Shown here: one piece after another, positions 2,774 to 63,967 of the stretch
How positions within the stretch are numbered: the stretch's first letter is position 1
How the letters are laid out: every line of letters starts with the position of its first letter
Assembly (NCBI GenBank): GCA_018902845.1
Contig: JAHIPV010000013.1
Location: forward strand, 82,766-146,765
From: Patescibacteria group bacterium
GTDB lineage: Bacteria; Patescibacteriota; Microgenomatia; UBA12405
Reading direction: 5' to 3'
Length of the DNA: 64,000 nucleotides
The notes under the pieces: model-generated
Databases searched by the model: none
Seen by the model: the letters and a program-made list of their open reading frames with translations, nothing else
Told to the model about the DNA's origin: nothing
Position numbers and translations under genes: made by a program

Positions 2774-4010
2774 ATTCTACTTTTGTACCCAAAGGCAGAA
2801 TTTCAACCCAAGTCCTTCCAGGCACAAAACCTATTTCTTTACCGCTACTGTTTTTAAATATTGTTCTGGCCGTCCTAGATTTTTTCGACCAGTTAATATC
2901 AATTTCTTTTCCGTTTTGTAGTAATACTCCCTTACCGCTACCTATCACTTCATACAAATTGTGTTTGTGTTCATCAATAGACCTGCTTTCTTTACTAAAC
3001 TGAATCAAAATATTTTTTGCAGTTAAAGTTTCCTCGGTATTAAAATCGATCTGTTTTTTGTCTGCGTTATATCTTTCATATTCGTTAGCTTCTTGGTTAT
3101 ATTTCCATTCAACCAAATATTCATCATCACCCCAAAATCCGAAACTGATACTTTTCGCTTCTGTACCACTATCAATTCCGTCTTCATCAAAACTCCATTC
3201 ATCAAAATCTTTATCCCATGAATTTTTACTCATCGCAGTCATGTTAGTCAAACCTCTTTCCTCGGCAACATTCCACAATTCCTCCGTAGAGCAATACATG
3301 GTATGTTCAGCCGCTCTGATCTCTCCGGTCCTTTCTTTTTCTCTTCGGCAAACTTTGTAAGACAAGGAAAACTGGCTTAAATCAGACCAACTGCCCTTAT
3401 TATTCCAACCGTAACCGGCGATTTGCTCAATTGCTTGTGCTTTGCTCTGAGTTGTACATGGTCCTGATTGCCTGCCGGTGCTTGGGTCTTTTGGTGCACT
3501 GCAGTTGGCTCCGCCCACGTGAGCATAAAGGGGATAATCTGAATATTCAGAGGCTATGTCAAGAAAGTAAGTCCTGGCTGACCTAACCGGTCCTACGTCA
3601 TAGTTTTTGCTGGCACCTCTAACGGCATTGCAATAATAAACAGCTATAAATCTTGTTATACCGCCTTCCGCTATCGCCTCGTAAACAACATCAGCATTTT
3701 GTAATCCGGATTGTGGTCGCGAATCAACATGATTTTCAATCATTACCAGTAACGGTCGTCTTTTTTCCCAAATTTCTTTTTCTTCTTTTGTAAATAATTG
3801 TCCATTAATAGGACATTTTTCAGTTTTTGGTCCTTCAAATTCCAAAACTCCTGTTATTTTTTTCTCTTCATTTTTACTTTCGTTGTCTACTTCGTCACTT
3901 TTAGCATTTTTTACCTGAGGTAAAAAATTATCAAAGGACCAATACGACAATCCGGAAAAAAATAAAAATAAACCGGCCAAAAACACAACCATTTGATTTT
4001 TTTTGTTCAT
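2760..4010 (-). CDS. Secreted DUF3048 (YerB-like) domain protein
   Basis: N-terminal TM or signal, then PLLVMIENHVDSRPQSGLQNADVVYEAIAEGGITRFIAVYY, which matches the DUF3048 N-terminal signature. Confidence 0.55.
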   Translation of the reverse strand: MNKKNQMVVFLAGLFLFFSGLSYWSFDNFLPQVKNAKSDEVDNESKNEEKKITGVLEFEGPKTEKCPINGQLFTKEEKEIWEKRRPLLVMIENHVDSRPQSGLQNADVVYEAIAEGGITRFIAVYYCNAVRGASKNYDVGPVRSARTYFLDIASEYSDYPLYAHVGGANCSAPKDPSTGRQSGPCTTQSKAQAIEQIAGYGWNNKGSWSDLSQFSLSYKVCRREKERTGEIRAAEHTMYCSTEELWNVAEERGLTNMTAMSKNSWDKDFDEWSFDEDGIDSGTEAKSISFGFWGDDEYLVEWKYNQEANEYERYNADKKQIDFNTEETLTAKNILIQFSKESRSIDEHKHNLYEVIGSGKGVLLQNGKEIDINWSKKSRTARTIFKNSSGKEIGFVPGRTWVEILPLGTKVEYASE

Positions 4011-4990: not shown

Positions 4991-5198
4991 AAGAATAAAA
5001 GGATCAACCCCGCCACGGCGGGGAGGAAAGTCCGGACCACAAAAGGCAAAAAAAGCTCTGCTACAGAGACGAGAAATGTGAAACGAGTATCTTTTTTGTG
5101 GAAATCTCAAAAATGAACGTTAATATCTAGCCTTTGAGAGTTCAAGGTAGAGAGAGTAGATAGATGATCCATAAACAAAATCCGGCTTATTTATTCTT
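4991..5198 (+). ncRNA. rnpB: RNase P RNA (rnpB), unusually small (~208 nt) with a reduced specificity domain
   Basis: P1 aagaataaa (4991-4999) pairs perfectly with tttattctt (5190-5198). P2 ggatc pairs with gatcc (5166-5170). P3 hairpin ccccgc-cacg-gcgggg. CR-I motif GGAGGAAAGTCCGGAC at 5024-5039. CR-V-like ACAAAATCCGGCTTAT at 5175-5190. The 3' part tagatagatgatcc...aaatccggcttat parallels E. coli M1 RNA CTAGATGAATGAC...AACCCGGCTTAT. Confidence 0.55.
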
Positions 5199-6224: not shown

Positions 6225-6420
6225 ACTCGTCATCCCGAACTTGCCCCCCCGTCATCCTGAGTGAGTTTTACGACCGAAGGATCCCCTCGGAACCAAATCT
6301 TGCCTTTGAGATTCTTCGCTCCCGCTCAGAATGACGCCCCACCCGTCATCCTGACCCCCCGTCATCCTGAGCTTGCCGAAGGATCCCCTAGCCATTTTTT
6401 CACCATTTTTTCAATCTCTT
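6225..6420. repeat. Cluster of family A repeats (GTCATCCTGAG...GAAGGATC), several units in both orientations
   Basis: cgtcatcccgaacttg, cgtcatcctgagtgagttttacgaccgaaggatcccctcgg, ctcagaatgacg (inverted), cgtcatcctgaccccccgtcatcctgagcttgccgaaggatcccc. The last unit encodes the miaA C-terminus. Confidence 0.7.
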
Positions 6421-7555
6421 TTTTATATTCTTTTTTTCCTATATCAAAAATTATTGCTTCCTTTCTTTTTTTAAACCACACCCGCTGTCTTTTTGCATAT
6501 CTATGTTCATCCATTCTCCACCTCTCAATAGCGTCACCCCGAGCACACGCCGTCATCCTGAGTCTGTCGAAGGATCCCATCGGAATTTTACCCACCTTTT
6601 CGAAATACTCTTCAAACTCTTTATACGCCAGCGTATTCATCCCCGGATCACTCCACTTATATTTTTTCAGCAACCCCTCAATTTCACCCAACAGTCCCTG
6701 TTTTAATCTTTTTTTAATTCTTTTATCAATTCTTTTTTTAATTAATTCTCTATTTCCTGTTAGTGACACATGCAAACAATCAAAATCAATGTCACCCCGC
6801 CCTGGCGGGGTCTCCGTCGGAATCTTACTCAACCTAATCTCTATCTTTCTTATCAATCTATGTCTATTATTTTTTTCTGAATTGTTTAATTTATCAAAAC
6901 TCTTTTTATCCAAAACCTTATAAACATTTCTAATCAGACCTGTAGAACACTTGTTCAATATCAATCTTAATAACTTATTCGGCTTTATCAAAAAATTCTT
7001 TTTCATATTCAAAATCGCATCAATATAAAATCCCGTACCTCCCACCACGATTGGTAGCTTTCCTTTTCCATAAATTTCCTCAACAGCTACTTCAAAACAC
7101 CCCAACCAATCCACTACGCTAAATTCTTTATCCGGTTCTACCACATCCAGCAGCCAAACCGGCATACTATCAATTTCATAATATCCAACATCAAACGCGT
7201 CATTCCGACCGAAGCGGAGGAATCTCTGAACTCGTTTCAGTATTCCAACATCAAACGCGTCATTCCGACCGAAGCGGAGGAATCTCTGAACTCGTTTCAG
7301 TATTCCAACATCAAAATTAAAAAGTTTGGAAATTGTGATTTGTGATTTGTGATTTACCGGCAGGTCTTTGCCGGTTCCTATATCCATTCCCTTATAAATT
7401 TGCCTAGAATCAGCCGAAATCAATTCCCCGTTAAACTTTTTGGCCAATTTCACCGCCAAACCTGTTTTTCCGCTGGCCGTCACTCCAGAAATAATTAAAA
7501 GCCTTTGTTTTACCATGTAAGTTTCACACATTAAATCTAAACTCAACCACATCAT
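6362..7555 (-). CDS. miaA: tRNA dimethylallyltransferase MiaA with in-frame repeat-derived insertions
   Basis: ISGVTASGKTGLAVKLAKKFNGELISADSRQIYKGMDIGTGK is the MiaA P-loop N-terminus. At 397 aa it is about 80 aa longer than typical MiaA. The extra segments map to repeat copies: the tandem 60-bp unit at 7181-7300, family A at 6536-6600, a caccccgccctggcgggg unit at 6781-6830, and family A at 6362-6400. Confidence 0.75.
   Translation of the reverse strand: MMWLSLDLMCETYMVKQRLLIISGVTASGKTGLAVKLAKKFNGELISADSRQIYKGMDIGTGKDLPVNHKSQITISKLFNFDVGILKRVQRFLRFGRNDAFDVGILKRVQRFLRFGRNDAFDVGYYEIDSMPVWLLDVVEPDKEFSVVDWLGCFEVAVEEIYGKGKLPIVVGGTGFYIDAILNMKKNFLIKPNKLLRLILNKCSTGLIRNVYKVLDKKSFDKLNNSEKNNRHRLIRKIEIRLSKIPTETPPGRGDIDFDCLHVSLTGNRELIKKRIDKRIKKRLKQGLLGEIEGLLKKYKWSDPGMNTLAYKEFEEYFEKVGKIPMGSFDRLRMTACARGDAIERWRMDEHRYAKRQRVWFKKRKEAIIFDIGKKEYKKEIEKMVKKWLGDPSASSG
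7181..7300. repeat. Perfect 60-bp tandem duplication (2 copies plus a partial third) of a GTCATTCCGAC...GAACTCGTTTCAG element inside miaA
   Basis: 7201-7260 is identical to 7261-7320. It translates in-frame to FDVGILKRVQRFLRFGRNDA twice. Related elements occur at 58591-58640, 43207-43262 and 15641-15670. Confidence 0.85.
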
Positions 7556-8588
7556 CAGCCTTCATTTTGTATTCTTTCCCCTCTAGTCTTAATTTACCCG
7601 CTTCTTTGGCTCCCAGCCATCCCTTATACTCCACAAAATCAGTATAAGAAATAATTGCCGCTGCAATAAAACCTCTTTCAAAATCACTATGTATCACCCC
7701 CGCCGCTTCAGGGGCTTTGCTATCGATTCTGGTAGTCCAGGCCCTGGCTTCTTTTTCACCGGCAGTATAAAAAGATTGCAAACCCAATGTTTCATAAGCT
7801 CTCCCTATCACTCTTTCCAGCCCCGATTCTTCCAGCCCCAAATCTTTTAAATATTTTTCTCTTTCCTCCTTAGAAAAATCGGCCAACTCCGCCTCTAGTT
7901 TGGCGCAAACCGGCACTACTTCCCAATTTTGGAAATTTAGATTTGAGATTTTAGATTTGCTATACGTATCCTCGTCCACATTAACTACAATAAAAAACGG
8001 CTTTAAAGTTAACAAAAAAAACTCTTTTATCATCTTTTTTTCATCTTCATCTAATTCAATTCGACTAGCCAATACTCCCTTTTCCAGCTCCGATTTCAGT
8101 TTTAATGCCAATTCATATTTATCTATTTCCTCTTTCTTTTTTTTACTGGAATCAATATACCTGTCAATACCTTCAAGATCTTTGATAATCAATTCGGCGC
8201 AAACCACCTCAAAATCTCCATCAGGATCAGTTGAACCGGCCCTAGCCACGTTTACATCAGAAAAATTTCTGACTACATGGCAAATCGCATCGCATTCACG
8301 GATATTATTCAAAAATTTATTTCCCAAACCCTCTCCCTCTGCCGCTCCTTTCACTAATCCGGCTATGTCTACAAACTCAACTACTGCCGGTACAAGTCTT
8401 TTGCTTTTGGCAATTTCTCCCAATATTGGTAATTTTTTGTCAGGCACTCCAACAATTCCTACATTAGGCTCAATGGTGCAAAAAGGATAATTACTGGCGT
8501 CTGCAATTTGCCGGCCCAATAGGGCGTTAAACAAAGTAGATTTTCCCACGTTTGGCAATCCCACTATCCCAATACTTAATTTACTCAT
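7524..8588 (-). CDS. ychF: Ribosome-binding ATPase YchF
   Basis: G1 motif GLPNVGKSTLFNAL, plus the YchF coiled-coil and TGS domain (IHSDFERGFIAAAII). A family D repeat at 7925-7960 encodes the in-frame SNLNFQNWE segment. Confidence 0.85.
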   Translation of the reverse strand: MSKLSIGIVGLPNVGKSTLFNALLGRQIADASNYPFCTIEPNVGIVGVPDKKLPILGEIAKSKRLVPAVVEFVDIAGLVKGAAEGEGLGNKFLNNIRECDAICHVVRNFSDVNVARAGSTDPDGDFEVVCAELIIKDLEGIDRYIDSSKKKKEEIDKYELALKLKSELEKGVLASRIELDEDEKKMIKEFFLLTLKPFFIVVNVDEDTYSKSKISNLNFQNWEVVPVCAKLEAELADFSKEEREKYLKDLGLEESGLERVIGRAYETLGLQSFYTAGEKEARAWTTRIDSKAPEAAGVIHSDFERGFIAAAIISYTDFVEYKGWLGAKEAGKLRLEGKEYKMKADDVVEFRFNV

Positions 8589-11471: not shown

Positions 11472-12158
11472 CTATTTTTTTATGCTTTCGTCAATTACTC
11501 TTTTTACCTGATCAATGGCAAAACCCTTTCTATACAAAGCCGAAATTATTTTGTTTTTCTTTTTAAAATCCAACAAGTCTGATTTATCTTTGATTTTTTT
11601 AAAAATAATCTTCCTAATCTTTTCTTCTTCTAAGCCGGTATTCAATCTCACCCATTTATTTATTTTTTCTTTAATTACTTCTTTACCAACCCCTTCACGC
11701 CTGAGTTCATAGCTAATTTGCCTAAAAGATTTGTTTCCGCTTTTTTTTATATAAAATCGGACATATTCGATATCATCAATCAGTTTGTTTTTTCTAAAAT
11801 CCTCCAAAACCTCCTCAATTATTTTTTCAAAGTCTTCTTTTCCCAGTTTCCATTTGTCATCCTGATCCCAAATTTTATTCGGGAGAAGGATCTCTCTTTT
11901 TTTTAAATTCTGAATTAGTTTCTTTTTAAGGCCGGGAAATGATTTTGGGGACATGGCAACTTGCCTAAGACCGTAATCTTTTAGCAAATAGAGTAGGGAG
12001 GTGTAAACAATTTTTTTATAAAACTTCTCGTCAATCTCCTGATTTTTCTTGATTTTTAGATTAATTACATCGTCTACCCATAACACCAATTTTTTTTTGT
12101 TGGAAAACTCAACCACACACTTCCCATTCGCCTTAATTTTGACAGTAATTATTTTCAT
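11472..12158 (-). CDS. recX: RecX-like regulatory protein
   Basis: 228 aa, 39 bp downstream of recA on the same strand, with a helical-repeat-like composition. Call rests on position plus weak similarity. Confidence 0.5.
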   Translation of the reverse strand: MKIITVKIKANGKCVVEFSNKKKLVLWVDDVINLKIKKNQEIDEKFYKKIVYTSLLYLLKDYGLRQVAMSPKSFPGLKKKLIQNLKKREILLPNKIWDQDDKWKLGKEDFEKIIEEVLEDFRKNKLIDDIEYVRFYIKKSGNKSFRQISYELRREGVGKEVIKEKINKWVRLNTGLEEEKIRKIIFKKIKDKSDLLDFKKKNKIISALYRKGFAIDQVKRVIDESIKK

Positions 12159-13319: not shown

Positions 13320-13810
13320 ATTTAATTATTAAATTATTTATTATTTTTTTCCCCCTCGTCATCCTGAGTGTAGCGAAGGATCTCCTTTTATTTAATTGTT
13401 TTTGAATTTAATTGAATTGATTTAACTTTTAATTCAAAAAAACTCTTTTCTAAAAACATTTAACATTGTCAAAATTATCATGTCAATACCCAAAACCAAA
13501 TAAAACCCGAAACTGTCTTACCATCCATAATACTTATTTTTGCCTGCCTCACAGTTACACTCAAACACACTTGTCACCCCGCCGTGGCGGGGCCCCGCCA
13601 GAATCAAGCCTCAATCCATTGTCATCCTGAACCACAACCGTCATCCCAAGTCCTCCCTCCGTCATCCTGAGTAAGTCTTACGACCGAAGGATCCCCTCGG
13701 AAAATACCTGTCATTGCGAGGAGTTCGACGACGTGACAACGTGTCCGCCTGTGGAGGATCCCGTCGGAATCAAACCAGTTTTGACAGTCAAAAGTAGTAT
13801 TGCAAGTTGT
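13320..13810. repeat. Repeat-rich intergenic region (families A and C and a gtcattgcgagga-type unit)
   Basis: cgtcatcctgagtgtagcgaaggatctcc at 13351. At 13617-13790 there are three gtcatcc units, then gtcattgcgaggagttcgacgacgtgacaacg, then gtccgcctgtggaggatcccgtcggaatc. Confidence 0.65.
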
Positions 13811-20520: not shown

Positions 20521-20539
20521 TTTCCCGCTCCCAGCGTGG

Positions 20540-20665
20540 TCGGCATTGTACCGAAAAATTCGAACTATATATATGAAATTATAACACTCGCCCCGCACGC
20601 TGTGCCTGTCCGCCTGTGGCGGAGGCGGTCGGCACGGCGAAAACAGCGGGGCTCCGCCGACGCAA
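20540..20665. repeat. IR-A left copy; its reverse complement is 27681-27804
   Basis: tcggcattgtaccgaaaaattcgaactatatatatgaaattataacactcgccccgcacgctgtgcctgtccgcctgtggcggaggcggtcggcacggcg matches the reverse complement of 27700-27804 with about 2 mismatches. Similarity decays over the outer ~20 bp. Confidence 0.85.
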
Positions 20666-27680: not shown

Positions 27681-27804
27681 TGTTCAATCGAGCCCCGCGT
27701 TTTACGCCGTGCCGACCGCCTCCGCCACAGGCGGACAGGCACGGCGTGCGGGGCGAGTGTTATAATTTCATATATATAGTTCGAATTTTTCGGTACAATG
27801 CCGA
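27681..27804. repeat. IR-A right copy (reverse complement of 20540-20665), directly abutting IR-B
   Basis: See IR-A left. Reading the minus strand through 27895-27681 gives continuous R2-TCGG-R1. Confidence 0.85.
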
Positions 27805-27895
27805 CAATTCATGAATGTTCTGATTTTTTAAAGTGGCGCAGGCCAAACTCGCACCGTTGGCCAGCGCCAAGAATCCGTCATTTTGAAATTTTGGG
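27805..27895. repeat. IR-B left copy; its reverse complement is 29340-29430 (91 bp, identical)
   Basis: caattcatgaatgttctgattttttaaagtggcgcaggccaaactcgcaccgttggccagcgccaagaatccgtcattttgaaattttggg is the reverse complement of 29340-29430. It encodes the same peptide RPKFQNDGFLALANGASLACATLKNQNIHEL on opposite strands. Confidence 0.9.
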
Positions 27896-29339
27896 CGTAC
27901 AATAAAAGTAGTTATAGAAACGCAAAAATTTTTATGAAGTACGTTGCTTACTGCCGTAAATCTACTGATGAACCTGATCGCCAAATTCTTTCAATTGAAG
28001 CTCAAATTGCCGAAGTAAAAGAATTCGCCCAAAGAGAAAACCTAGAAATTGTCAATTTTATTATCGAAAGTCGCACCGCTCGAAAGCCGGGTCGACCAGA
28101 ATTCCAAAAAGTGTTGCAAATGCTTGAGACTGGCAAGGTTGGTGGCATCATTTCATGGCATCCGGATAGGCTAGCTAGAAATTCAATCGATAGCGGTCAA
28201 CTGATATATCTTCTAGACATTGGAAAACTACTTGATTTAAAGTTTCCAACTTTTTGGTTTGATAACACTCCCCAAGGCAAATTTATGCTTAATATCGCTT
28301 TTGGCCAATCCAAATATTATGTCGATAACCTGTCCGAAAATGTAAGGCGCGGAATAAGGCAAAAACTCCGCAGGGGTGAATGGCCATCAAAAGCTCCCTT
28401 TGGTTATCAAATGGATTCCACCAAAAAGTTGATAGTTGACCGTAAAACTGGTAAATATGTTAAACAAATTTTTGAAATGTATGCCACCTGTCGGTATACA
28501 TATGTTGATTTGCAAAACTTTTTGTTCGATCACAAAATTTATTCTAAGCATGGTAATAAAATCGACATTGGTACATTAAAACGAATTCTGATCGACCCCA
28601 TCTATTACGGAACAATGAAGATGAAGGGCGAATTCTTTTAGGGAGTCCATAAACCCATCATCACCAAGAAACTTTTTGACAAAGTTCAAACGGTAATCAA
28701 TCGTAAATCAAAAAATTATTTATCCAACAAAACTGATTTTCACTTCTTAGGTCTAGCCACCTGTGGCGAATGTGGCTCGTCCATTACCGCTGAAAAACAT
28801 CGTAAGCATTACTTGCGTCGAAACATTGATGTTGATTACCACTATTATCGGTGCAGTAAGAAGAAAATGCCATGTCATCAATCATATCTACCATCATCAA
28901 TATTTGAAAATCAATTAAGACAAATAATTTTTAAGGCTTCAATATCACCATTTGTCGCCAAAAAGTTTCTTGATTGGGCTAGTGATGATGTTAATAGTGA
29001 AACCCAAAATACATCAGATGAGATTAATACCCTATCTTCGGCAATTTCAGATACAGATTCCAAACTTAATAATCTTCTCGATGGTTACATTGATAAAACC
29101 ATCGATCCACTTGATTACCAAAGAAAGAAAAACGAATTAATTCAATATAAAGTTACCACCGAGGAGAAAATCAAAGAAATTAATACCAATGGTTCGAGTT
29201 GGCTCGAACCATTTACGGAATTTGTTAATAGTGCGCTACTAGCGCACAAAATCGCGCGTGCAAAAAATAATTGCACCGATTTACTAATCGGTGCCAAAAC
29301 TGTCGGCTCGAACTACTTTTTATTGGATAAAACAATACA

Positions 29340-33417: not shown

Positions 33418-34631
33418 TCCCCCTTTTCTTTTTTCTAATTTTCCTTTTGTACAATAACACAAGCTACGCACAAACACCAACTATTATTACGAATCCAAAT
33501 TCGGGAATTTATCTTAATGAAATCATGCCAAATCCGCCAGATGGCGATGAATGGGTTGAAATTTATAATAACAACAATTTTTCTATTATTTTAGAAAATT
33601 GGAAGATTCAAGATGAAACCACAAAAACAAGGCCTATTCCAACTGAAATTATCCAAGCTAAGTCTTATTATGGTTTTTCTGTCGGAAGCGGATTCCTGAA
33701 CAATGGTGGTGATACGGCTAAATTATTAAATGATCAAGGTGTTAATATAAATGAATTCAACTATTCTAAAAGTTCAACGGATTTAAGTTGGTCGAAACAA
33801 ACAGATATTATTTGGTGCGAAGCCGATCCAAGTAAAGGAGAAATCAACGGCACTTGTTTTAAAGCAGCCCCAACTAATACTTCCACTCCAACCAACACTC
33901 CCACCAATTCTCCAACTCCCACCCAAACTCCCACCCCCACAGTCACCCCCACCCCACTCCCTCAACTTTCAGTTCGCATCATCGACATACCCTCTTACAC
34001 CACCCAAAACCAAATTTTTACCATCAAATTTTTAATCGAAAATGCTCCATCTCAAAAAGAATATTATGCCAAGGCTTTTGGTGGTGTTAACGATTATTCT
34101 TCTATACAAACCGAAAACAACGGCAAGTGGCTAAACTATACCGGTAGTTCATGGACTGAATTTCGGTCTTTTAAAGTTGGCGTTGGTGGCTCCGGCAGTT
34201 TTATCTTAACCGCCAAAGTCAAAGAATCCGCCCCAACCGGGGAGTACAAGGTCCAAATCCGTATCAAGCCAACCGACGAGGAAAAAACAACCGATAGCGA
34301 TCTTCACATCCTTCAAGTTTCCCAATCAGTGCCAACACTCGTCCCAACCCCAACCCCCACCCCCACTTCAAAACTTTCTCCCACCCCGACCTTGTCTTCC
34401 ACAGAAAAACTAAAAGAAAAATTATCAGACAAAGATTACGACGGCGATGTTCTGGGTATCACTGATATCACCATGACACCCACCCCAACCAAAACAAATT
34501 CAAAAGAAAAATCCGGCAATCAAAACATTTTCCCGGCTATTTTTATGTTAATTGGTGGCGGACTCTTACTTATTCCTGTCATAATTACCAAAATCAATGA
34601 ATGGAAAAACAACAAACAAACCAACACATAA
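33396..34631 (+). CDS. Cell-surface protein: signal peptide, lamin-tail domain (LTD), Pro/Thr linkers, beta-rich domain, C-terminal TM anchor
   Basis: Signal MHKPKLCIPLFFFLIFLLYNNTSYA. LTD signature IYLNEIMPNPPDGDEWVEIYNNNNFSIILENWKIQD. PT tracts TPTNTPTNSPTPTQTPTPTVTPTP. C-terminal IFPAIFMLIGGGLLLIPVII. Confidence 0.6.
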   Translation: MHKPKLCIPLFFFLIFLLYNNTSYAQTPTIITNPNSGIYLNEIMPNPPDGDEWVEIYNNNNFSIILENWKIQDETTKTRPIPTEIIQAKSYYGFSVGSGFLNNGGDTAKLLNDQGVNINEFNYSKSSTDLSWSKQTDIIWCEADPSKGEINGTCFKAAPTNTSTPTNTPTNSPTPTQTPTPTVTPTPLPQLSVRIIDIPSYTTQNQIFTIKFLIENAPSQKEYYAKAFGGVNDYSSIQTENNGKWLNYTGSSWTEFRSFKVGVGGSGSFILTAKVKESAPTGEYKVQIRIKPTDEEKTTDSDLHILQVSQSVPTLVPTPTPTPTSKLSPTPTLSSTEKLKEKLSDKDYDGDVLGITDITMTPTPTKTNSKEKSGNQNIFPAIFMLIGGGLLLIPVIITKINEWKNNKQTNT

Positions 34632-39784: not shown

Positions 39785-40486
39785 ATGCGCATCCAAACCA
39801 CTATCATGAGTAGTGTTATGACAATGAAACTAAAAAAAATATTAAATATCTTTACTGCCTTAACCCAGCTACTATTAATACTATTAATAATACTAACTCT
39901 GGCCGTTACATTTTTATCCCGTCGCGGAATATCTAACCTTAGAGCCTTTGTAATTTCTACCGGTTCCATGGGTACCTCAATTCCCGCCGGCTCTCTTATC
40001 ATTACCCAGCCCCAAGATTCTTATCAAAAAGATGACATTATTACTTATTACACTAACGATTCTAACGGCAACCGCCAAAAACTGCCCACCACTCACCGCC
40101 TAGTCGAAGTAAAACAGGGCGAAAATTTAGGCTATCAAACCAAAGGTGATGGCAATCAAACTGTCGATCCATTTATCACTCCAGCCAAAAGTCTTATCGG
40201 TAAAGTAATTTTCCACTTGCCTTTTTTTGGTTATTTTAGTAATTTTGCCCAAAGCAGAAACGGATTTATATTCCTAATAGTCATCCCTGCTACTATTCTT
40301 ATATACGGTGAAATCAATACTATTTTTAAAGAAATTAATAAATTAATTAAAAAGAAAAAAGTAGGGGCGACCCTTGCGGTCGCCCGCAAGAAACATCTGT
40401 CATCACGAGGATCCGCCAACTGGCGGAGACGTGGTGATCCCGTCGGGATTGCCACATCCTCCGATAAATCGGAGTCTTCGCAATGA
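39785..40486 (+). CDS. sipW: Signal peptidase I, SipW (archaeal/ER S26B) type
   Basis: TM anchor, then STGSMGTSIPAGSLIIT. The motif is the S26B-type SGSMEP with the Ser nucleophile. It ends in a lysine-rich C-terminus. The true start is probably M at ~39824. Confidence 0.6.
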   Translation: MRIQTTIMSSVMTMKLKKILNIFTALTQLLLILLIILTLAVTFLSRRGISNLRAFVISTGSMGTSIPAGSLIITQPQDSYQKDDIITYYTNDSNGNRQKLPTTHRLVEVKQGENLGYQTKGDGNQTVDPFITPAKSLIGKVIFHLPFFGYFSNFAQSRNGFIFLIVIPATILIYGEINTIFKEINKLIKKKKVGATLAVARKKHLSSRGSANWRRRGDPVGIATSSDKSESSQ

Positions 40487-40495
40487 CAAACATAA
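40361..40495. repeat. Family B palindrome (GTAGGGGCGACCCTTGCGGTCGCCCGCA) plus a gtcatcacgagga unit, at the sipW 3' end and the N-terminus of the next gene
   Basis: gtaggggcgacccttgcggtcgcccgcaag at 40361, identical to 43155, 48396 and 62945. Then tgtcatcacgaggatccgccaactggcggagacgtggtgatcccgtcggg. Confidence 0.75.
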
Positions 40496-43130: not shown

Positions 43131-43139
43131 CAACCTTGT

Positions 43140-43270
43140 CATTCCGACCAAAATGTAGGGGCGACCCTTGCGGTCGCCCGCAAAAAACAACAATGCTAAA
43201 AAAAATATTAACATCCGTCATCCTGAACTTGTTTCAGGATCCCATTGAGATTCTGAACTAAATTCAGAAT
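43140..43270. repeat. Family B palindrome plus a palindromic family A unit (cgtcatcctgaacttgtttcagg...ctgaactaaattcagaatgacg)
   Basis: aatgtaggggcgacccttgcggtcgcccgcaaaaaac, then catccgtcatcctgaacttgtttcaggatcccattgagattctgaactaaattcagaatgacgaa. Confidence 0.75.
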
Positions 43271-43347
43271 GACGAATATATTAATTTAAAAAGTCTTGAA
43301 ATTATTTGGAAATTTAAATTTTAGATTTAACATCTAAATTTAACTTA

Positions 43348-44982: not shown

Positions 44983-45488
44983 GTGCCAATCTAGGGATTT
45001 GCACCCTAGGCGGACAACTCAACCTACTAAAAGTAGCTATCTTGTCATCGAAGGTCTTAAGCCCCTCATAGTGGATCTCCCACTACCTGCTTGGCTTGTT
45101 TCATATTTTATTTTTTTAATTTTTAAGGATATCTCCTCACTCTGTCGCGACTTGGTCTTCTACGGTCAGTATCGTGTAAAGTGCCAGGAACAACATCTCC
45201 TCCTTGATCCCTGTCCCAGCTTATTCTTCTAGGTGCTCTTCGATCATAAACCGTTGAATGACCTCCTCCACCGGGTCTTCGTTGTATATTAAACCCAAAA
45301 TCATCCTGCTGAAACGGATCGGGATCGCGATATAAGACCATATCATACAAAACAGGGTGAACTAAGGGTATAATAGAATCACTTCTACCTTCAAAAACTG
45401 CATGTAAATATGTTTCTAACATTTTTGTTTAATAAATTAATAAATCTTACAACCTAGAATAACATAGAAACCATAGTAAACTTAACTC

Positions 45489-46613
45489 ATGAATAAATTT
45501 CTCTCTTTTTTAATCTTTCCAATTTTATTTCTCACTTGTTTTTTGTTTTTTACCCCAATCTCTCTCGCCCAATCATCGACTGAGGGTGAAAACATTATCG
45601 AAGCCAAAGTTATAGAGATATTGGAAGAAGGGGAAAGAGAAACTTTAGGGACCAAGCATATTTACCAGGAACTCAAGCTTGATGTTTACAAGGGAGATTT
45701 AAAGGGTGAACAAATAACCATAATAAACGGTGACTTGCCATTTGCAAATTTACAAAAATACAAAATCAATGATCGGCTTATTATTAATCATGGCACCGAT
45801 TTTGAGGGTAACCAATTTTTCCAAATTATCGACTATGTCCGTCGCGACAGCCTCTTGCTCCTCTTCATAATTTTTATGGCTGTTACTCTTTTTATCACCC
45901 GTTGGTATGGTTTTACTTCCATTCTTGGCATGTTTTTTTCATTTTTCGTTATTTTCAAACTTATTCTTCCGCAAATTATTGCAGGAACTAACCCCATATT
46001 AATTTCAATTTTAGCTTCAGTTATCATCATTCCCATTACTTTTTATCTTTCTCATGGTTTTAATGTCAAAACAAACGTAGCCATTATAAGCACTATTGTT
46101 TCCCTTGTGGTTACCGGTATTTTGGCCTATATTTTCATAGAGATCGGAAAACTTACAGGTTTTTCTTCCGAAGAAGCCGCTATTTTAAAAACAAATTTTG
46201 AAAATACCATCAGCATGAAAGGCTTAATTCTTTCCGGCATTATCTTGGCTTCTCTGGGAGCCCTAGATGATATTACCGTAGCTCAAGCATCTATTGTTAC
46301 GGAATTAGTCGATGCACACAATAATCCCAAATTTATAGATATTTATAAACACGCCATGTCTGTCGGTCGTGATCATATTAGTTCTATGGTCAACACCCTA
46401 ATTTTGGTTTATACCGGCGCTTCCTTGCCCTTGCTCTTACTATTCGTAAATAATCCCCATCCTTTTACTGAAATTATAAATTATGAATTCATTGCCGAAG
46501 AAATAATAAGAACCCTGGTAGCCAGTATCGGCCTGATTCTTTCCGTTCCCCTATCTACCGTTCTCGCCACTTTCCTCTTCTTAAAAAAAGCCAAACACAC
46601 ACCATCATCCTAA
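45489..46613 (+). CDS. YibE/F-family integral membrane protein
   Basis: Signal, then an extracellular N-domain and a multi-TM region with LGALDDITVAQASIV typical of PF07907. Confidence 0.5.
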   Translation: MNKFLSFLIFPILFLTCFLFFTPISLAQSSTEGENIIEAKVIEILEEGERETLGTKHIYQELKLDVYKGDLKGEQITIINGDLPFANLQKYKINDRLIINHGTDFEGNQFFQIIDYVRRDSLLLLFIIFMAVTLFITRWYGFTSILGMFFSFFVIFKLILPQIIAGTNPILISILASVIIIPITFYLSHGFNVKTNVAIISTIVSLVVTGILAYIFIEIGKLTGFSSEEAAILKTNFENTISMKGLILSGIILASLGALDDITVAQASIVTELVDAHNNPKFIDIYKHAMSVGRDHISSMVNTLILVYTGASLPLLLLFVNNPHPFTEIINYEFIAEEIIRTLVASIGLILSVPLSTVLATFLFLKKAKHTPSS

Positions 46614-46759
46614 AACCACATCCGTCATCCTGATCACCCGCAGGGGGAGAAGGATCTAGCAAAGCATTCTTCGTCACAGTCACCCGCAAATAAAATTTTA
46701 AATTTTATATTTGGAAATTTGAATTTTAGATTTTAGATTTTTATGTATATACTGATATT

Positions 46760-47626: not shown

Positions 47627-47691
47627 AACACCCCGTCATCCTGAGTCCGATTCATCGGACGAAGGATCTAGCGAAGCGTTTATAATAAACT

Positions 47692-47961: not shown

Positions 47962-48763
47962 CTTCTCTCCACTTCTTGATCCTTTCATGATCCCCGGACA
48001 AAAGTATTTCCGGCACTTCATACCCCATAAACTCCCTTGGTCTGGTATATTGGGGATACTCTACTTTTCTCACTTTTTTTCCTTTAATCTTCACTTCCGA
48101 AAAACTATCGATCTCTTTCGATTCTTCTTTTCCCAAAACATCAGGTAAAAGTCTTGTTACACTATCAATCAATATCATGGCCGGTATTTCTCCACCCGTT
48201 AATACATAGTCACCTATCGATATGACCTCATCTACCATGTAATCCATTACTCTCTGATCAAAGCCTTCATAATGCCCACACAGCAAAATCAAATTGTCCA
48301 ATCTAGACAACTCCTCCGCCTTTTTCTGCGTATATCTTTCTCCTTTAGCCGACAAAACCACCACTTTTATTACAGGCCTGTCGTTGCCTGTTTTTGTAGG
48401 GGCGACCCTTGCGGTCGCCCGCAGATGTGTCGACCTGTCCGCCCTTGATGGATCTCGTCGCAGTTTAGTATTTCCTTTCTTCTTTTTTGTTTTATTTGGA
48501 AATTTAAATTTTAGATTTTGGGCTTTAACGCCATTTATAGCCTCATATACCACATCCGCCCTTATTAGCATTCCCGCTCCGCCTCCAAATGGTTTATCAT
48601 CTACAGTTCCATAATCATCAATCGCCCAATCTCTTAAATTATGTATATCAAGCTCCAAGATCTTATTCTTAACGGCTCTGCCAATCATACTTTCCTCAAA
48701 AACCGACTCAAACATTTTTGGAAACAAACTTACCACATCAATTTTCATATTTGATTTTACCAA
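47942..48763 (-). CDS. trmD: tRNA (guanine37-N1)-methyltransferase TrmD with ~40-aa in-frame repeat-derived insertion
   Basis: MKIDVVSLFPKMFESV...GRAVKN...DDKPFGGGAGM...LLCGHYEGFDQRV...IGDYVLTGGEIPAMILIDSV all match TrmD. The segment NLKFKFPNKTKKKKGNTKLRRDPSRADRSTHLRATARVAPTKTGNDRP is encoded by family D (48487-48520) and family B (48396-48470) repeats. Confidence 0.85.
   Translation of the reverse strand: MVKSNMKIDVVSLFPKMFESVFEESMIGRAVKNKILELDIHNLRDWAIDDYGTVDDKPFGGGAGMLIRADVVYEAINGVKAQNLKFKFPNKTKKKKGNTKLRRDPSRADRSTHLRATARVAPTKTGNDRPVIKVVVLSAKGERYTQKKAEELSRLDNLILLCGHYEGFDQRVMDYMVDEVISIGDYVLTGGEIPAMILIDSVTRLLPDVLGKEESKEIDSFSEVKIKGKKVRKVEYPQYTRPREFMGYEVPEILLSGDHERIKKWREAKTRCR
48396..48520. 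repeat. Family B palindrome plus family D unit inside the trmD coding sequence
   Basis: ttgtaggggcgacccttgcggtcgcccgcagatgtgtcgacctgtccgcccttgatggatctcgtcgc...tttggaaatttaaattttagattttgggc. Confidence 0.8.
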
Positions 48764-48819
48764 ATTACTACACCCTATCTTCTTTTAATCTCCATATATT
48801 TTTATTATAATAAAAATAT

Positions 48820-49537: not shown

Positions 49538-50146
49538 GTGATATATAAAAAAGGTAAATTTTTCGTTATTTACGGATCAAACAATTTAGGTAAAAGCACT
49601 CTTAGCAAAGGAATTGCTCACTATCTTGAATGGGGAGGTTTTCCTGTTAGATATATAAAATATCCGGTTTATAGTCTGAAACCGACTGGGCCACAGATAA
49701 ACGCATATCTTCGAAAAGGAAATCCAAAAAAATTGACCATGTTTGCAGCTCAAAAAATATATGCCCAAAACCGCAGAGATTTTGAACCCAAGCTAATAGA
49801 CACAATCAATAGGGGTATTAGCGTTATTGCTGAAGATTATATAGGAACAGGAATAGCTTGGGGCATGACCAAGAATGTATCACAAGAATTATTGGAACAA
49901 ATCAACAGCAATCTGCTGGATCCTGATCTGGCCATCCTTGTTGATGGTAATAGGTTCAATTCTGGCATTGAGCCCAATCACACACACGAAAGCTTAAATG
50001 AATTATGGCAGACAAATCGCCAAATACATCTAGAATTAGCCAAAAAATACAATTGGAAAATAATCAATACCAACAAACCAATAAAAAAAGTCCTACAGGA
50101 TGCACTTCTGCATATTCTGCCTCTACTTAAAAATCGCTTTGTTTAA
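49538..50146 (+). CDS. tmk: Thymidylate (dTMP) kinase-like P-loop nucleoside monophosphate kinase
   Basis: FFVIYGSNNLGKSTL P-loop. YIKYPVYSLKPTGPQINAYL is a nucleotide-binding-like region. 202 aa. Family assignment is tentative. Confidence 0.45.
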   Translation: MIYKKGKFFVIYGSNNLGKSTLSKGIAHYLEWGGFPVRYIKYPVYSLKPTGPQINAYLRKGNPKKLTMFAAQKIYAQNRRDFEPKLIDTINRGISVIAEDYIGTGIAWGMTKNVSQELLEQINSNLLDPDLAILVDGNRFNSGIEPNHTHESLNELWQTNRQIHLELAKKYNWKIINTNKPIKKVLQDALLHILPLLKNRFV

Positions 50147-50173: not shown

Positions 50174-51397
50174 ATGTCAAAACACAAGCGAATGCGCAGT
50201 CCGCCTCTGGAGGAAGCAAAAACTCAAACCGCAGTTTTAGTGATTCCAACCTACAATGAGGCCGAAAACATCGGTCTTATGATGGATCATCTTTTTAGCA
50301 AAACTTTCAAAAATATAAAAGCCAAAAAAGTAAACAAAAATAATTGGCAAATGAAAGTTCTGGTGGTTGACGGAAATTCTCCCGATGGCACCGGCAAAGT
50401 AGTCAAGCAAAAAGCCAAAAAATACAAAGATATTTACTTATATACCGAAACCAGCAAAGACGGTATTGGCGCCGCCTATCTAAAAGGTTTTAAATATGCC
50501 ATCAATAAGTTAAAAGCTGATTTTGTTTTTGAATTTGACGGTGATTTTCAGCACCCTCCCGAGTCTATTCCCATCATGTTGAAAGCCGTAGAAGATGGTT
50601 GTGACTATGTAATCGGATCTCGAAAAATAGAAGGTGGCTCTAATCCGGAAGGTTGGGGGTTCAAAAGAGTTTTCTTTTCCGAAGTCGGCGGTTTCACGGC
50701 TCGTTTCATTTTATTTTTCCCTTTCAAAAACTTTTTCAAAGTTACCGATCCCACCACCGGTCTAAAAGTTACCCGAGTTAAAGGCTTTTTGGACAAACTA
50801 GACATGGATTATCATAATCTTTATTCAAAAAGTTTTGGCTATAAACTGGAATTACTCTTTAATACCTTAAAGTTAAAACCAAAATTCAAAGAAATCCCTC
50901 TAAAATTTCAAGTCAGGACAGCCGGTGAATCAAAAATTCAAACTCAAACCGCCAAAGATATTTTTAGAGTTGCCGTACTTCTTCGCTGGCATGACGATTT
51001 TACCCAAAAATTCCTCAAATTTGGCACAGTCGGATTTATAGGCTATCTTGTCAATGCCACCCTTTTAAGTTTTATTTCAAAAAAATGGGGCATAGAATGG
51101 CTTTCTTGGCTTCTGTCCACAGAAGCTGCCATTATCAGTAATTTCACCCTTAACAATCTCTGGACTTTCAAATCAGATGAGATAAAAGGTTTAAAAATTA
51201 TTGGCAAATTCCTTCAGTTTAATTTTACCTCCATGGGGGCTTTATTGATCCAAACCATTATGGGTACAATCGGAGTTTATTTAACTAGCCCGGAGTACCG
51301 CCAGCTCCTTTTGCCCTTTATTATCGTCTTTATAGTTTTACCTTACAACTGGTTCATGTATAATAAGGTAATTTGGAAGAAGAAAAGTGGAAAGTAG
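50174..51397 (+). CDS. GT2 glycosyltransferase (Dpm1/polyprenol-phosphate sugar synthase-like) fused to a GtrA-like membrane domain
   Basis: VLVIPTYNEAENIG, VVDGNSPDGT and the DxD region are GT2 features. The C-terminal LKFGTVGFIGYLVNATLLSFI with 4 TM is GtrA-like. N-terminal residues RSPPLEEA are encoded by a family C repeat. Confidence 0.6.
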   Translation: MSKHKRMRSPPLEEAKTQTAVLVIPTYNEAENIGLMMDHLFSKTFKNIKAKKVNKNNWQMKVLVVDGNSPDGTGKVVKQKAKKYKDIYLYTETSKDGIGAAYLKGFKYAINKLKADFVFEFDGDFQHPPESIPIMLKAVEDGCDYVIGSRKIEGGSNPEGWGFKRVFFSEVGGFTARFILFFPFKNFFKVTDPTTGLKVTRVKGFLDKLDMDYHNLYSKSFGYKLELLFNTLKLKPKFKEIPLKFQVRTAGESKIQTQTAKDIFRVAVLLRWHDDFTQKFLKFGTVGFIGYLVNATLLSFISKKWGIEWLSWLLSTEAAIISNFTLNNLWTFKSDEIKGLKIIGKFLQFNFTSMGALLIQTIMGTIGVYLTSPEYRQLLLPFIIVFIVLPYNWFMYNKVIWKKKSGK

Positions 51398-58547: not shown

Positions 58548-58580
58548 TCTGTCCCAGTATCACATTTTTTTAAATTAAAG

Positions 58581-58700
58581 TCATTGTCATTCCGACTGAA
58601 ATGGAGGAATCTCTGAACTTGTTTCAGAAATCCCGCTATAAGCGGGATACCTCAGACAAGCTGAGAGATCCCTCGACTTCGCTCGGGATGACATCAAATC
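58581..58700. repeat. Palindromic family A variant (gtcattccgactgaa...gaacttgtttcag...cgggatgacatc)
   Basis: gtcattgtcattccgactgaaatggaggaatctctgaacttgtttcagaaatcc...cctcgacttcgctcgggatgacatc. Confidence 0.65.
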
Positions 58701-62926: not shown

Positions 62927-63967
62927 CCTGTCATTCTGAGTCTTTTGTAGGGGCGACCCTTGCGGTCGCCCACAGACATAGCAACCTGTCCGCCTCTGGA
63001 GGAAGCGTAACGAAGGATATAGCAAAGATTTGTGTATCAAGTCTGACAATTTTTTGATGCTCTCCCCATCTAATATTGACACGGCAATTTTGGCACCAAT
63101 TTTTTTAATAAAAACATCAATCTCTTTTTTGCTTAACAAATCGCTTTTTGTTAACACTATAATCTCTTTTCTGCTCGCCAGAGCCTCACTGTATCTTTTT
63201 AATTCTTCCTTTATGACTTCATAATCTTTTTTAGGATTCCCTGAATCCGCCGGTACACAATGAATCAACAATTTTGTTCTTTCTACATGTTTCAAAAATT
63301 TAAAACCCAAACCCTTCCCCATCGACGCACCTTCGATTAATCCGGGAATATCCGCAATTATCTTTTTGCCGGCACTCACACCCAAATTAGGTTCAAGGGT
63401 GGTAAAAGGATAATTAGCCACTCTGGCTTTTGCCCTGGTTAGCTCGTTTAATAAGCTTGATTTTCCTGCATTTGGTAGCCCTATCAGGCCAACATCAGCG
63501 ATTAACTTTAATTGCAAAAACAAGTTTCTCCATTCCTTTTTTTCGCCCTCTTCAAATTCCTTTGGAGTCGTATTAATAGAACTTCTAAAAGCATGGTTTC
63601 CTTTTCCACCTTTTCCACCTTTTACAATTATCACTTTTTCGCCTTTTTCTTTTATTTCCACACTTGTTCCGTTATCATAATTAACCACGGTCCCAATTGG
63701 TATTTTAAAAATCATATCTTCTCCATTCTTGCCATCTCTTTGATTCGTGCCACCCTTTTCACCATTTTCAGCAAAAAACCTTTTTTTAAAACGGAATTGT
63801 TTTAACGCTGTTATATCGTCAACTCCTTCGAAAATTACTATTCCTCCATTCCCTCCGTTTCCTCCATCTGGCCCCCCTTTTGGCCTATGTCGATCACGGT
63901 AAAAATGCATCATTCCATCTCCTCCGTCTCCAGCCTTTATCTTTATTTTTGTTTCATCAATCAACAT
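62918..63967 (-). CDS. obg: GTPase Obg with a repeat-encoded C-terminal tail
   Basis: FIDETKIKIKAGDGGDGMMHFYRDRHRPKGGPDGGNGGNGG is the Obg fold. GLIGLPNAGKSSLLNELT is G1. The last ~30 aa (RFLQRRTGCYVCGRPQGSPLQKTQNDRLN) are encoded by family A/B/C repeats at 62921-63020. Confidence 0.85.
   Translation of the reverse strand: MLIDETKIKIKAGDGGDGMMHFYRDRHRPKGGPDGGNGGNGGIVIFEGVDDITALKQFRFKKRFFAENGEKGGTNQRDGKNGEDMIFKIPIGTVVNYDNGTSVEIKEKGEKVIIVKGGKGGKGNHAFRSSINTTPKEFEEGEKKEWRNLFLQLKLIADVGLIGLPNAGKSSLLNELTRAKARVANYPFTTLEPNLGVSAGKKIIADIPGLIEGASMGKGLGFKFLKHVERTKLLIHCVPADSGNPKKDYEVIKEELKRYSEALASRKEIIVLTKSDLLSKKEIDVFIKKIGAKIAVSILDGESIKKLSDLIHKSLLYPSLRFLQRRTGCYVCGRPQGSPLQKTQNDRLN
62921..63020. repeat. Composite of family A (gtcattctgag), family B palindrome and family C (gtccgcctctggaggaagcg...cgaaggat)
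   Basis: cctgtcattctgagtcttttgtaggggcgacccttgcggtcgcccacagacatagcaacctgtccgcctctggaggaagcgtaacgaaggatatag. Confidence 0.75.

What the first reader, a model, noticed from the sequence alone, without database searches (positions are those of the whole stretch)
6362..7555. Dispersed palindromic repeat families inserted in-frame into intact conserved genes (miaA x4, trmD, ychF, obg, GT2, sipW-neighbour)
At least four repeat families occur more than 30 times in 64 kb:
- family A: GTCATCCTGAG...CGAAGGATC, often palindromic, with a GAACTTGTTTCAG hairpin variant.
- family B: GTAGGGGCGACCCTTGCGGTCGCCCGCA, a perfect 8-bp stem.
- family C: GTCCGCCT(G/C)TGG(A/C)GGA.
- family D: TTTGGAAATTTAGATTTTAGATTT.
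Several copies lie inside ORFs whose reading frame stays open:
- miaA gains ~80 aa, including a perfect 60-bp tandem duplication that encodes FDVGILKRVQRFLRFGRNDA twice.
- trmD gains ~40 aa from families D and B.
- obg and the GT2 gene gain repeat-encoded termini.
- family B translates to the same peptide LRATARVAPT in two different genes.
This is the behaviour described for Rickettsia palindromic elements. I am not aware of it being reported for this kind of AT-rich, CPR-like genome.
The perfect 60-bp tandem copy points to very recent activity or replication slippage.
Basis: seen in the sequence. Interest (0 to 1): 0.75.

Follow-up and report, generated by a model that had tools for sequence, protein, structure and literature searches.

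The report
Hairpin repeats translated inside essential genes
A tiny uncultured (CPR/Patescibacteria) bacterium carries dozens of short DNA-hairpin repeats. About a third of them sit in-frame inside intact housekeeping genes such as miaA and trmD, and the same hairpin motif turns out to be spread across many bacterial phyla and phages.

Summary
The window is a Patescibacteria MAG contig near Shapirobacteria. It carries about 55 short repeat units where shuffles predict fewer than 3.

Family A is a GTCAT-headed hairpin whose stem covaries in 29 of 30 units. Family B is a GTAG-headed perfect hairpin and family C is a small hairpin. Family D is a heptamer repeat and is not palindromic.

About a third of the units lie inside ORFs. 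They sit at four sites in miaA (+79 aa) and one loop of trmD (+48 aa). They also lie in recX and ychF, the GT2 N-terminus, and the obg and sipW C-termini.

Orthologues lack these segments. Relatives at 80-95% identity show gains, losses and swaps of units at the same sites. The host genes are under purifying selection (dN/dS 0.06-0.16).

The 60-bp duplication is single-copy in two other assemblies and is flanked by a 12-bp direct repeat.

The behaviour matches Rickettsia palindromic elements, but there is no sequence relationship to them. The anatomy is closer to REP/REPIN and Neisseria dRS3.

Unexpectedly, motif A is cosmopolitan: it occurs in many phyla and in viral contigs. It is also strand-biased.

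The multiplication mechanism is inferred, not shown.

The parts
6362..7516 (-). miaA coding sequence (384 aa) carrying repeat-derived segments at four sites
   Evidence: Pfam IPPT and TIGR00174 score above their cut-offs. PDB and orthologue alignments show the extra segments.
7184..7303 (+). Two perfect 60-bp copies. Each holds a GTCATTCCGA..GGAATC hairpin and a CTGAACTCGTTTCAG hairpin. The 12-bp direct repeat TCCAACATCAAA occurs at 7184, 7244 and 7304.
   Evidence: Loci L003, L131 and L132 hold a single copy.
7322..7355 (+). Family D unit (TTTGGAAATT plus TTGTGAT heptamers) inside miaA site i. It encodes NHKSQITISKLF.
   Evidence: It is not a hairpin.
6791..6830 (+). miaA site ii: GTCAC-headed perfect hairpin plus the tail TCTCCGTCGGAAT. 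It encodes IPTETPPGRGD.
   Evidence: The relative L001 has a larger set of different GTCAT units at exactly this site.
6533..6590 (+). miaA site iii: a partial head plus a family A unit plus the tail CCATCGGAAT. It encodes IPMGSFDRLRMTACARGD.
   Evidence: The relative has the ILKQVQDD variant here.
6354..6390 (+). Family A unit that supplies the last 7-8 codons (GDPSASSG) and the TGA stop codon of miaA
6229..6353 (+). Intergenic array downstream of miaA: partial heads and an inverted doublet (6251-6335)
7925..7958 (+). Family D unit inside ychF (SKSKISNLNFQ), with no net length gain
   Evidence: A different GTCAT unit occupies the same YchF spot in metagenome locus L379.
11856..11892 (+). Family A unit inside recX (EILLPNKIWDQDD), just before the conserved RecX repeats
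48391..48525 (+). Composite of B, C and D units forming the 47-48-aa loop insert of trmD
50184..50213 (+). 30-nt family C insertion in the N-terminus of the GT2 gene. It is absent from the 95%-identical relative L127.
62930..63032 (+). Composite with an A head, nested B and C units and an A tail. It encodes the C-terminal ~30 aa of obg.
40356..40487 (+). Family B unit plus an inverted doublet of the GTCAT[TC][GA]CGAGG subfamily. It encodes the 40-aa C-terminal tail of sipW. The ~82-86%-identical relative L129 has a different, shorter segment here (78 nt where the window has 183 nt).
43136..43341 (+). Intergenic array in the order A head/B, A doublet, D
58571..58692 (+). 107-nt composite palindrome with GTCAT...ATGAC ends (DNA fold -24 kcal/mol, z -5.8)

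Best explanation
These are short, modular DNA-hairpin repeats of the REP / dRS3 kind.
- Family A: GTC-AT[YCY]-variable loop-[RGR]AT-C.
- Family B: GTAG plus an 8-bp stem.
- Family C: a 6-bp stem.
- Family D: heptamer repeats that accompany the others.

**Proposed mechanism**
- The units multiply and turn over within the genome. They nest into and next to each other, and they pile up in intergenic spacers.
- When a copy lands in a permissive surface loop or at a terminus of a gene, it survives only if two conditions hold. Its length must keep the reading frame, and the frame read must have no stop codon. Two of the three frames are stop-free in either orientation.
- Surviving copies are then simply translated as an extra loop or tail, as described for Rickettsia palindromic elements.
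- The 60-bp duplication in miaA is a secondary slippage or unequal exchange between 12-bp direct repeats flanking one unit.

**Shown**
- The repeats exist, their stems covary, and their content is polymorphic between close relatives.
- Orthologues lack the extra segments.
- The host genes are under purifying selection.

**Inferred**
- Translation of the inserts is inferred.
- The multiplication mechanism is inferred. The most likely route is a strand-specific, single-stranded-DNA hairpin process at the replication fork, of the HUH/RAYT type, or recombinase-targeted exchange as proposed for dRS3. I put this at about 35-40% within this explanation.
For: - Counts far exceed shuffles.
- Stems are complementary across four stem variants in 29 of 30 units, against a permutation mean of 12.
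- Perfect-stem variants and doublets fold strongly as DNA, with z of -4.5 to -5.8.
- In other genomes the commonest loops are CGNAG, which gives GCGNAGC mini-hairpins.
- The intergenic 13% of the window holds about 64% of the units.
- Orthologue alignments show that the extra segments are lineage-specific.
- Filled and empty sites differ between genomes about 95% identical:
  - a 30-nt unit in GT2;
  - a 75-nt unit in trmD;
  - extra units in the CAP/YibE spacer, one of them 97.7% identical to a distant window copy.
- Relatives at about 80% identity carry different units at the same miaA and trmD sites.
- dN/dS is 0.06-0.16 in the miaA and trmD cores.
- The AF2 model of MiaA has a core pLDDT mostly 81-98. 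The inserts score lower: site i 56-69, site ii about 63, the C-terminal tail about 40.
- Strand bias is 50:9 over 79 kb, independent of gene strand and on the C-rich strand. The same bias appears in viral contigs at 84:27, p = 1e-7.
- The same units occur in independent assemblies from NCBI, ENA and Logan.
Against: - No RAYT/Y1 transposase or any other plausible mobilising enzyme lies in the 79 kb examined. The rest of the genome could not be read.
- Motif A is identical across phyla with 23-71% G+C. REP families are normally lineage-specific, so this is unusual for them. It could instead point to a selected function.
- The short family A units are not predicted to be stable by standard nearest-neighbour DNA parameters (-1.6 kcal/mol, z about 0).
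- The strand bias is weak in other genomes (54:35, p = 0.056) and absent for the perfect-palindrome variant (40:39).
- One unit is flanked by a 12-bp direct repeat. HUH-type transposition does not produce this.
- Divergence between the relatives is mosaic, so some of the differences in units may come from recombination rather than transposition.
- No expression or proteomic data are available.
Confidence: 0.62

Rival explanations
1. The hairpins are host-selected functional sites rather than selfish repeats. Candidates include binding or processing sites for a conserved replication, recombination or transcription factor, lagging-strand priming signals, or recombinase targets that promote allele exchange as proposed for dRS3/NIME. 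Under this reading the copies in genes are by-products.
For: - Conservation of the 20 specified bases of motif A is exact across many phyla and in viral contigs.
- The motif is strand-polar.
- In other genomes it tends to lie just downstream of a co-oriented gene (79 against 35).
- dRS3 arrays have been proposed to be recombinase targets (PMC1797815).
- Divergence around the repeats is mosaic, and a non-orthologous tmk replacement is bounded by a family C unit.
Against: - Copies differ in presence between 95%-identical genomes at sites with no obvious regulatory role, including inside coding loops.
- Many subfamilies with different stems coexist.
- No candidate binding protein has been identified.
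- Orientation relative to genes in the window is inconsistent.
Confidence: 0.2
2. There is no mobility. The segments are ordinary hypervariable loops and spacers. Their similarity arises from replication slippage, quasi-palindrome template switching and gene conversion among a few ancestral copies.
For: - The 60-bp duplication is a slippage-type event between 12-bp direct repeats.
- Relatives carry something at the same hot-spot loops.
- Perfect and imperfect palindromes coexist.
Against: - Identical 25-nt units occur at more than 20 unlinked places.
- A unit in relative L127 is 97.7% identical to a window copy 8 kb away from the syntenic position.
- Clean 30-nt and 75-nt presence/absence differences exist between genomes about 95% identical.
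- The same motif occurs in unrelated phyla.
Confidence: 0.1
3. The intragenic copies are not translated. They would be removed or bypassed at the RNA or ribosome level, as in intron-like excision or translational hopping. Alternatively the genes are assembly artefacts or pseudogenes.
For: - CPR genomes are known for insertions in rRNA genes (from memory).
- Contigs often break at the repeats: L005 ends and L001 begins inside the miaA repeat.
Against: - All internal inserts keep the frame and lack stop codons, which removal would not require.
- The units are too short for known self-splicing introns, and no Rfam family matches them.
- The same intragenic copies are recovered in independent assemblies.
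- dN/dS is 0.06-0.16 on both sides of the inserts.
Confidence: 0.04

Closest known systems
Rickettsia palindromic elements (RPE; Ogata et al. 2000, as summarised in PMC10969869)
   Same: - Dispersed palindromic repeats in a small genome.
- A large fraction is inserted in-frame into unrelated housekeeping genes without destroying them, adding peptide segments to surface regions.
   Different: - RPEs are about 150-bp elements in about ten families, each with a conserved peptide. Here the units are 16-45-nt modules that nest and combine, and they are read in several frames and both orientations.
- No NCBIfam RPE-domain model hit was returned.
- The motif is not lineage-restricted.
REP / REPIN elements mobilised by RAYT transposases (PMC3116915, PMC3337134)
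   Same: - Imperfect palindromes of 20-40 nt with a conserved 5' head. Family B even starts with GTAG.
- Mostly intergenic and clustered.
- Some occur as inverted doublets (1834/1917, 6251/6335, 43217/43273, 58586/58692).
   Different: - No RAYT gene was seen in 79 kb.
- The family A head is GTCAT, not GTAG.
- A third of the copies lie within ORFs.
- The identical motif occurs across phyla and in phage contigs.
Neisseria dRS3 repeats and NIME arrays (PMC1797815)
   Same: - dRS3 is ATTCCC-N8-GGGAAT, with fixed AT-YCC/GGR-AT arms around a variable centre.
- dRS3 units are clustered into dynamic mosaic arrays that differ between strains.
- Family A arms (AT[TC]C[CT]/[AG]G[AG]AT) and array behaviour are alike.
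   Different: - The dRS3 centre is fixed at 8 nt and the elements are described as intergenic and Neisseria-specific.
- Here loops are 3-30+ nt and often carry their own hairpin. Copies occur in coding sequence, and the host is a CPR bacterium.

Membership tests
Rickettsia palindromic elements (RPE) | Sequence or peptide similarity to the RPE1-RPE5 families | tested here: not met
   An NCBIfam scan of MiaA, TrmD, Obg, SipW, RecX, GT2, two relatives and a sense-frame repeat ORF at E<=10 returned no RPE-domain model. That RPE models are in this release is from memory.
Rickettsia palindromic elements (RPE) | Element of about 100-150 bp with one conserved reading frame | tested here: not met
   Units are 16-45 nt, modular and nested. 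Family B is read in three different frames or orientations in three genes. RPE size is taken from PMC10969869.
Rickettsia palindromic elements (RPE) | In-frame insertion into intact, unrelated conserved genes | tested here: met
   miaA, trmD, recX, GT2, obg and sipW. dN/dS is 0.06-0.16.
REP/REPIN-RAYT | Short imperfect palindrome with a conserved 5' head (GTAG) | tested here: inconclusive
   Family B has GTAG plus an 8-bp stem. Family A has a different conserved head, GTCAT, with a covarying stem.
REP/REPIN-RAYT | Inverted doublets (REPINs) | tested here: inconclusive
   All five minus-strand A copies pair with an adjacent plus-strand copy: four tail-to-tail doublets and one head-to-head pair at 57209/57223. 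The other ~15 plus-strand copies are singletons. Doublets are common in other phyla (27 of 115 loci).
REP/REPIN-RAYT | A cognate RAYT (Y1/HUH) gene in the genome, usually flanked by REPs | not testable with these tools
   None was found among the ORFs of the window plus 15 kb of flanks. The remainder of the MAG could not be fetched.
Neisseria dRS3/NIME | 20-bp unit ATTCCC-N8-GGGAAT | tested here: not met
   The arms are similar, but the centre is variable (3-30+ nt) and four arm variants coexist. The definition is taken from PMC1797815.
Neisseria dRS3/NIME | Dynamic mosaic arrays at syntenic positions that differ between strains | tested here: met
   The CAP/YibE spacer, the miaA downstream array and the sipW tail differ in unit content between relatives.
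MITE (DDE-transposase derived) | Terminal inverted repeats plus a target-site duplication of fixed length | tested here: inconclusive
   One unit has a 12-bp flanking direct repeat. The GT2 and trmD polymorphic insertions show at most a 3-4-nt ambiguity. No transposase was found.

The most novel reading that the evidence does not exclude
The GTCAT-headed hairpin (GTC-ATYCY-loop-RGRAT-C, canonically GTCATCCTGA-GCGNAGC-GAAGGATC) may be an undescribed, cosmopolitan class of strand-polar DNA repeat. It is shared base-for-base by many bacterial phyla and their phages. An unknown conserved mechanism, coupled to replication or recombination, would maintain it. It can colonise coding sequence, and CPR bacteria such as this one show the extreme case, in which it remodels loops of essential tRNA-modification enzymes and GTPases.
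Probability: 0.35. Interest if true: 0.8.

Novelty: new variant of a known kind. Interest (0 to 1): 0.62.

Why it matters
- **Protein evolution in a minimal genome.** Selfish or recombinogenic hairpin repeats, not just point mutation, appear to create new loops and tails in core enzymes (MiaA, TrmD, Obg, YchF, aaRS) of an organism with one of the smallest genomes. This gives a natural experiment on which protein positions tolerate insertions.
- **Practical consequences.** The repeats break short-read assemblies. They inflate 'hypothetical protein' calls. They also confound orthologue alignments in CPR genomes.
- **An open question.** The identical hairpin across phyla and phages, with a strand polarity, is not accounted for by the usual lineage-specific REP/RAYT picture. 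It points to a mechanism worth finding.

Tried and rejected
- **Protein-database search with the repeat peptide.** I searched the 40-aa repeat-encoded peptide to find other host proteins. The word index returned nothing, and the search was wasted.
- **Metagenome scan for the full 42-nt A2+hairpin unit.** It gave 0 hits. I replaced it with the 25-mer hairpin variant.
- **Rfam.** No family matches the repeats at the gathering threshold or at E<=0.5. The only extra row is a chance-level MicX hit.
- **Are the inserts more conserved than their flanks?** The trmD insert is 94.6% identical against 89.5-90.4% for the core. However, divergence along this region is mosaic (CAP is 99.9% identical), so no conclusion can be drawn.
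- **Target-site duplications.** Only the 12-bp case was found.
- **Orientation relative to neighbouring genes in other genomes and phages.** The signals were mixed and noisy.
- **Literature searches.** Searches by motif sequence and by CPR+REPIN/RPE terms found nothing relevant. A search for cyanobacterial small dispersed repeats was uninformative.
- **Plasmid BLAST.** It gave only five weak, unannotated hits.
- **Hammerhead-like reading of UGAG...CGAA.** I rejected this on inspection because the CUGANGA core is incomplete.
Full report
**What is there**

The window is 100% identical to part of a Patescibacteria MAG contig, JAHIJS010000018.1 of GCA_018898085.1. The nearest named relatives of its MiaA and TrmD are Candidatus Shapirobacteria. 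The sequence has 33-43% G+C, and GC skew is negative throughout.

The ORF at 6362..7555(-) is miaA. It matches Pfam IPPT and scores above the TIGR00174 cut-off. Its likely start is at 7516, giving 384 aa. Its neighbours are ordinary housekeeping genes: ychF, recA, recX, rny, trmD, obg, era, lon and argS.

**The repeats are real and far above chance**

| Motif | Found | Expected from shuffles |
|---|---|---|
| GTCATYCYGA (family A head) | 25 | 0.22 |
| Family B 25-mer | 4 exact | 0 |
| Family C | 10 | 0.11 |
| Family D | 12 | 2.4 |

A further subfamily, GTCAT[TC][GA]CGAGG...GACGTGG[CT][AG]ATC, has 4 copies.

Family A has the form GTC-AT[YCY]-loop-[RGR]AT-C.
- Four stem variants coexist: CCT/AGG, TCT/AGA, TCC/GGA and CCC/GGG. 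Head and tail are complementary in 29 of 30 units. The permutation mean is 12 and the maximum 21.
- Loops range from 5 nt to more than 30 nt. They often hold their own small hairpin, or whole B and C units, as at 62930-63032 and 48391-48470.

Folded as DNA, the families behave differently.
- The perfect-stem variants and the long composite palindrome fold strongly, with z of -4.5 and -5.8.
- Family B is a clean 8-bp stem.
- The minimal A units are not predicted to be stable, with z about 0. The nearest-neighbour model may undervalue their G·A mismatches; this point is from my own knowledge, not a tool result.
- Family D is a heptamer repeat and not a hairpin.

**Location**

Coding sequence covers 86.6% of the window, yet about 64% of the units lie in the 13.4% that is intergenic. 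About a third lie inside ORFs.

*miaA*
- Site i follows DIGTGKD. About 59 aa replace 3 aa of the B. halodurans structure. The segment is made of a D unit and two 60-bp copies of an A hairpin plus a second hairpin.
- Site ii encodes IPTETPPGRGD.
- Site iii is a 13-aa gain.
- At the C-terminus, an A unit supplies seven or eight codons and the stop codon.
- About 120 orthologues have a median length of 307 aa.

*trmD*
- A D+C+B composite adds 47-48 aa. It lies in the segment between the two conserved TrmD blocks, which spans only about 7 residues in solved structures. That this segment is a surface loop between a helix and a strand is from memory.
- The shortest orthologues have a 19-residue segment there, where this gene has 67.

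*Other genes*
- recX holds an A unit.
- GT2 holds a C unit in its N-terminus.
- obg and sipW end in repeat-encoded tails of about 30 and 40 aa.
- The ychF D unit does not add length.

LRATARVAPT occurs in only one real gene. Family B is read as CGRPQGSPLQ in obg and as VGATLAVAR in sipW.

**Are they insertions, and are the genes alive?**

Two relatives at about 95% nucleotide identity were compared, L127 and L128, from GCA_018817965.1 and ERZ27247128.
- They lack the 30-nt GT2 unit: MSK[HKRMRSPPLEEA]KTQ here against MSK[QV]KTQ there.
- They carry an extra 75-nt segment with a GTCATCCCGAG...GGGATC unit in the trmD loop.
- They hold additional units in the CAP/YibE spacer. One of these is 97.7% identical to the window copy at 38454.

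Relatives at about 80% identity (L001, L129) carry different GTCAT units at the very same miaA and trmD positions.

The host genes appear functional.
- dN/dS for the flanking cores is 0.06-0.16.
- An AF2 model of MiaA has pTM 0.81. The core pLDDT is mostly 81-98. Site i scores 56-69, site ii about 63 and the C-terminal tail about 40. Site iii is modelled as a helical extension.

The host genes therefore look functional, and most of the extra segments look like peripheral excursions.

**The 60-bp duplication**

Assemblies from two other samples have a single copy. In that allele a 48-nt unit is flanked by the perfect 12-bp direct repeat TCCAACATCAAA. The two-copy allele is what unequal exchange or slippage between those repeats would give. 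Reads are needed to exclude assembler collapse.

**Strand polarity**

- Over the window plus 15 kb of flanks, 50 units lie on the + strand and 9 on the - strand. This holds regardless of gene direction. The + strand is the C-rich strand.
- The five minus-strand A copies are all partners of inverted doublets.

**Distribution**

The phyla include Chloroflexota, Acidobacteriota, Bacteroidota, Firmicutes, Planctomycetota, Gemmatimonadota, Nitrospirales, Cyanobacteria, Rickettsiales, Legionellaceae, Omnitrophota, Saccharibacteria and other CPR.
- Family B occurs in 23 viral loci.
- The exact 25-mer GTCATCCTGAACTTGTTTCAGGATC occurs in at least 120 metagenome stretches.
- Host G+C ranges from 23% to 71%.
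- In those genomes the commonest loops are CGCAG, CGAAG and CGTAG, which gives GCGNAGC. Many copies are inverted doublets.
- Units there are depleted from long ORFs: 9-25% against 55-67% for random positions. Some are nevertheless in-frame in real proteins: a class I aminoacyl-tRNA synthetase, a YchF at the same variable spot as here, and a type III methyltransferase.
- In viral contigs the copies are co-oriented (30 loci against 6) and lie on the C-rich strand (84:27, p = 1e-7). In genomes the trend is weak (54:35).

**Interpretation**

The behaviour is RPE-like: in-frame, tolerated insertions. Membership of the RPE family fails on element size, on modular structure and on the NCBIfam test.

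The anatomy is closest to two other known kinds.
- REP/REPIN elements share the conserved head plus imperfect palindrome, the doublets and the intergenic clustering.
- Neisseria dRS3/NIME arrays share the AT-YCC/GGR-AT arms around a variable centre and the dynamic mosaic arrays.

No mobilising enzyme was found in 79 kb. A serine recombinase and a tyrosine integrase are present but are not linked to the units.

I therefore commit to 'REP/dRS3-like hairpin repeats filtered by selection into in-frame, translated loop and tail insertions'. The multiplication step is inferred, and a strand-specific single-strand DNA or recombinase-targeted process is the most likely route.

The cross-phylum identity of the motif is the main unexplained fact. 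It keeps a functional-site rival alive.

**Novelty**

No paper in the searchable library mentions the motif or links CPR genomes with REPIN/RPE-type elements. Rfam has no family for it, and plasmid records do not annotate it.

I rate the finding a new variant of a known kind. There is a moderate chance that the cosmopolitan GTCAT hairpin is itself undescribed.

Noticed in passing
window 4991-5198 (+): A 208-nt RNase P RNA scores above the gathering threshold for the archaeal Rfam model (RF00373, 90.7 bits), not a bacterial one. The genome is otherwise bacterial. This is a very small or atypical RNase P RNA.
   Followed up: no
window 49133-50214 (tmk 49538..50146 +): The thymidylate kinase gene here is only 21-24% identical to the tmk of relatives L127 and L129, which lies on the opposite strand. 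The flanks are 95% identical. This is a non-orthologous replacement whose right boundary coincides with the family C unit at 50199-50214.
   Followed up: partly
window 20539-20654 and 27690-27805: A 117-bp segment is repeated in inverted orientation at 97% identity, 7 kb apart. It brackets HD, asd, NlpC, a TPP enzyme and a Mur ligase. The second copy abuts a serine recombinase gene (27883..28641) near tRNA-Pro. This may be an invertible or mobile segment.
   Followed up: no
window 45458-49133 vs L127/L128: Divergence from a related population is strongly mosaic. The CAP-domain gene is 99.9% identical, trmD is 90% and YibE_F is 94%. This indicates recent recombination between the populations.
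   Followed up: partly
window 7184-7315: The single-copy allele of the miaA unit is flanked by a perfect 12-bp direct repeat, TCCAACATCAAA. This resembles a target-site duplication and is not expected for HUH-type hairpin elements.
   Followed up: partly
window 6229-6360 and 13621-13660: Orphan 'heads' (GTCATCCYGA followed by a C-rich spacer, with no matching tail) are stacked just 5' of complete units. An extended C-rich tract (CCACAYCC) precedes most GTCAT heads, here and in Chloroflexota copies.
   Followed up: no
window 33870-33960 and 36100-36480: Thr/Pro-rich 12-24-nt tandem repeats (ACTCCCACCCAA...) lie inside two large secreted or surface proteins with Lamin-tail domains. They are unrelated to the hairpin families.
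   Followed up: no
L178 (IMG/VR contig, 62% G+C), ORF around 2958-3207: A phage ORF of about 710 aa contains at least four GTCAT-type units in-frame (QILRSAQDD, SLARDD, ILRSAQDD, SRSARDD) in one acidic/basic linker. In-frame colonisation therefore also happens in phage structural-size proteins. No Pfam hit was found.
   Followed up: partly
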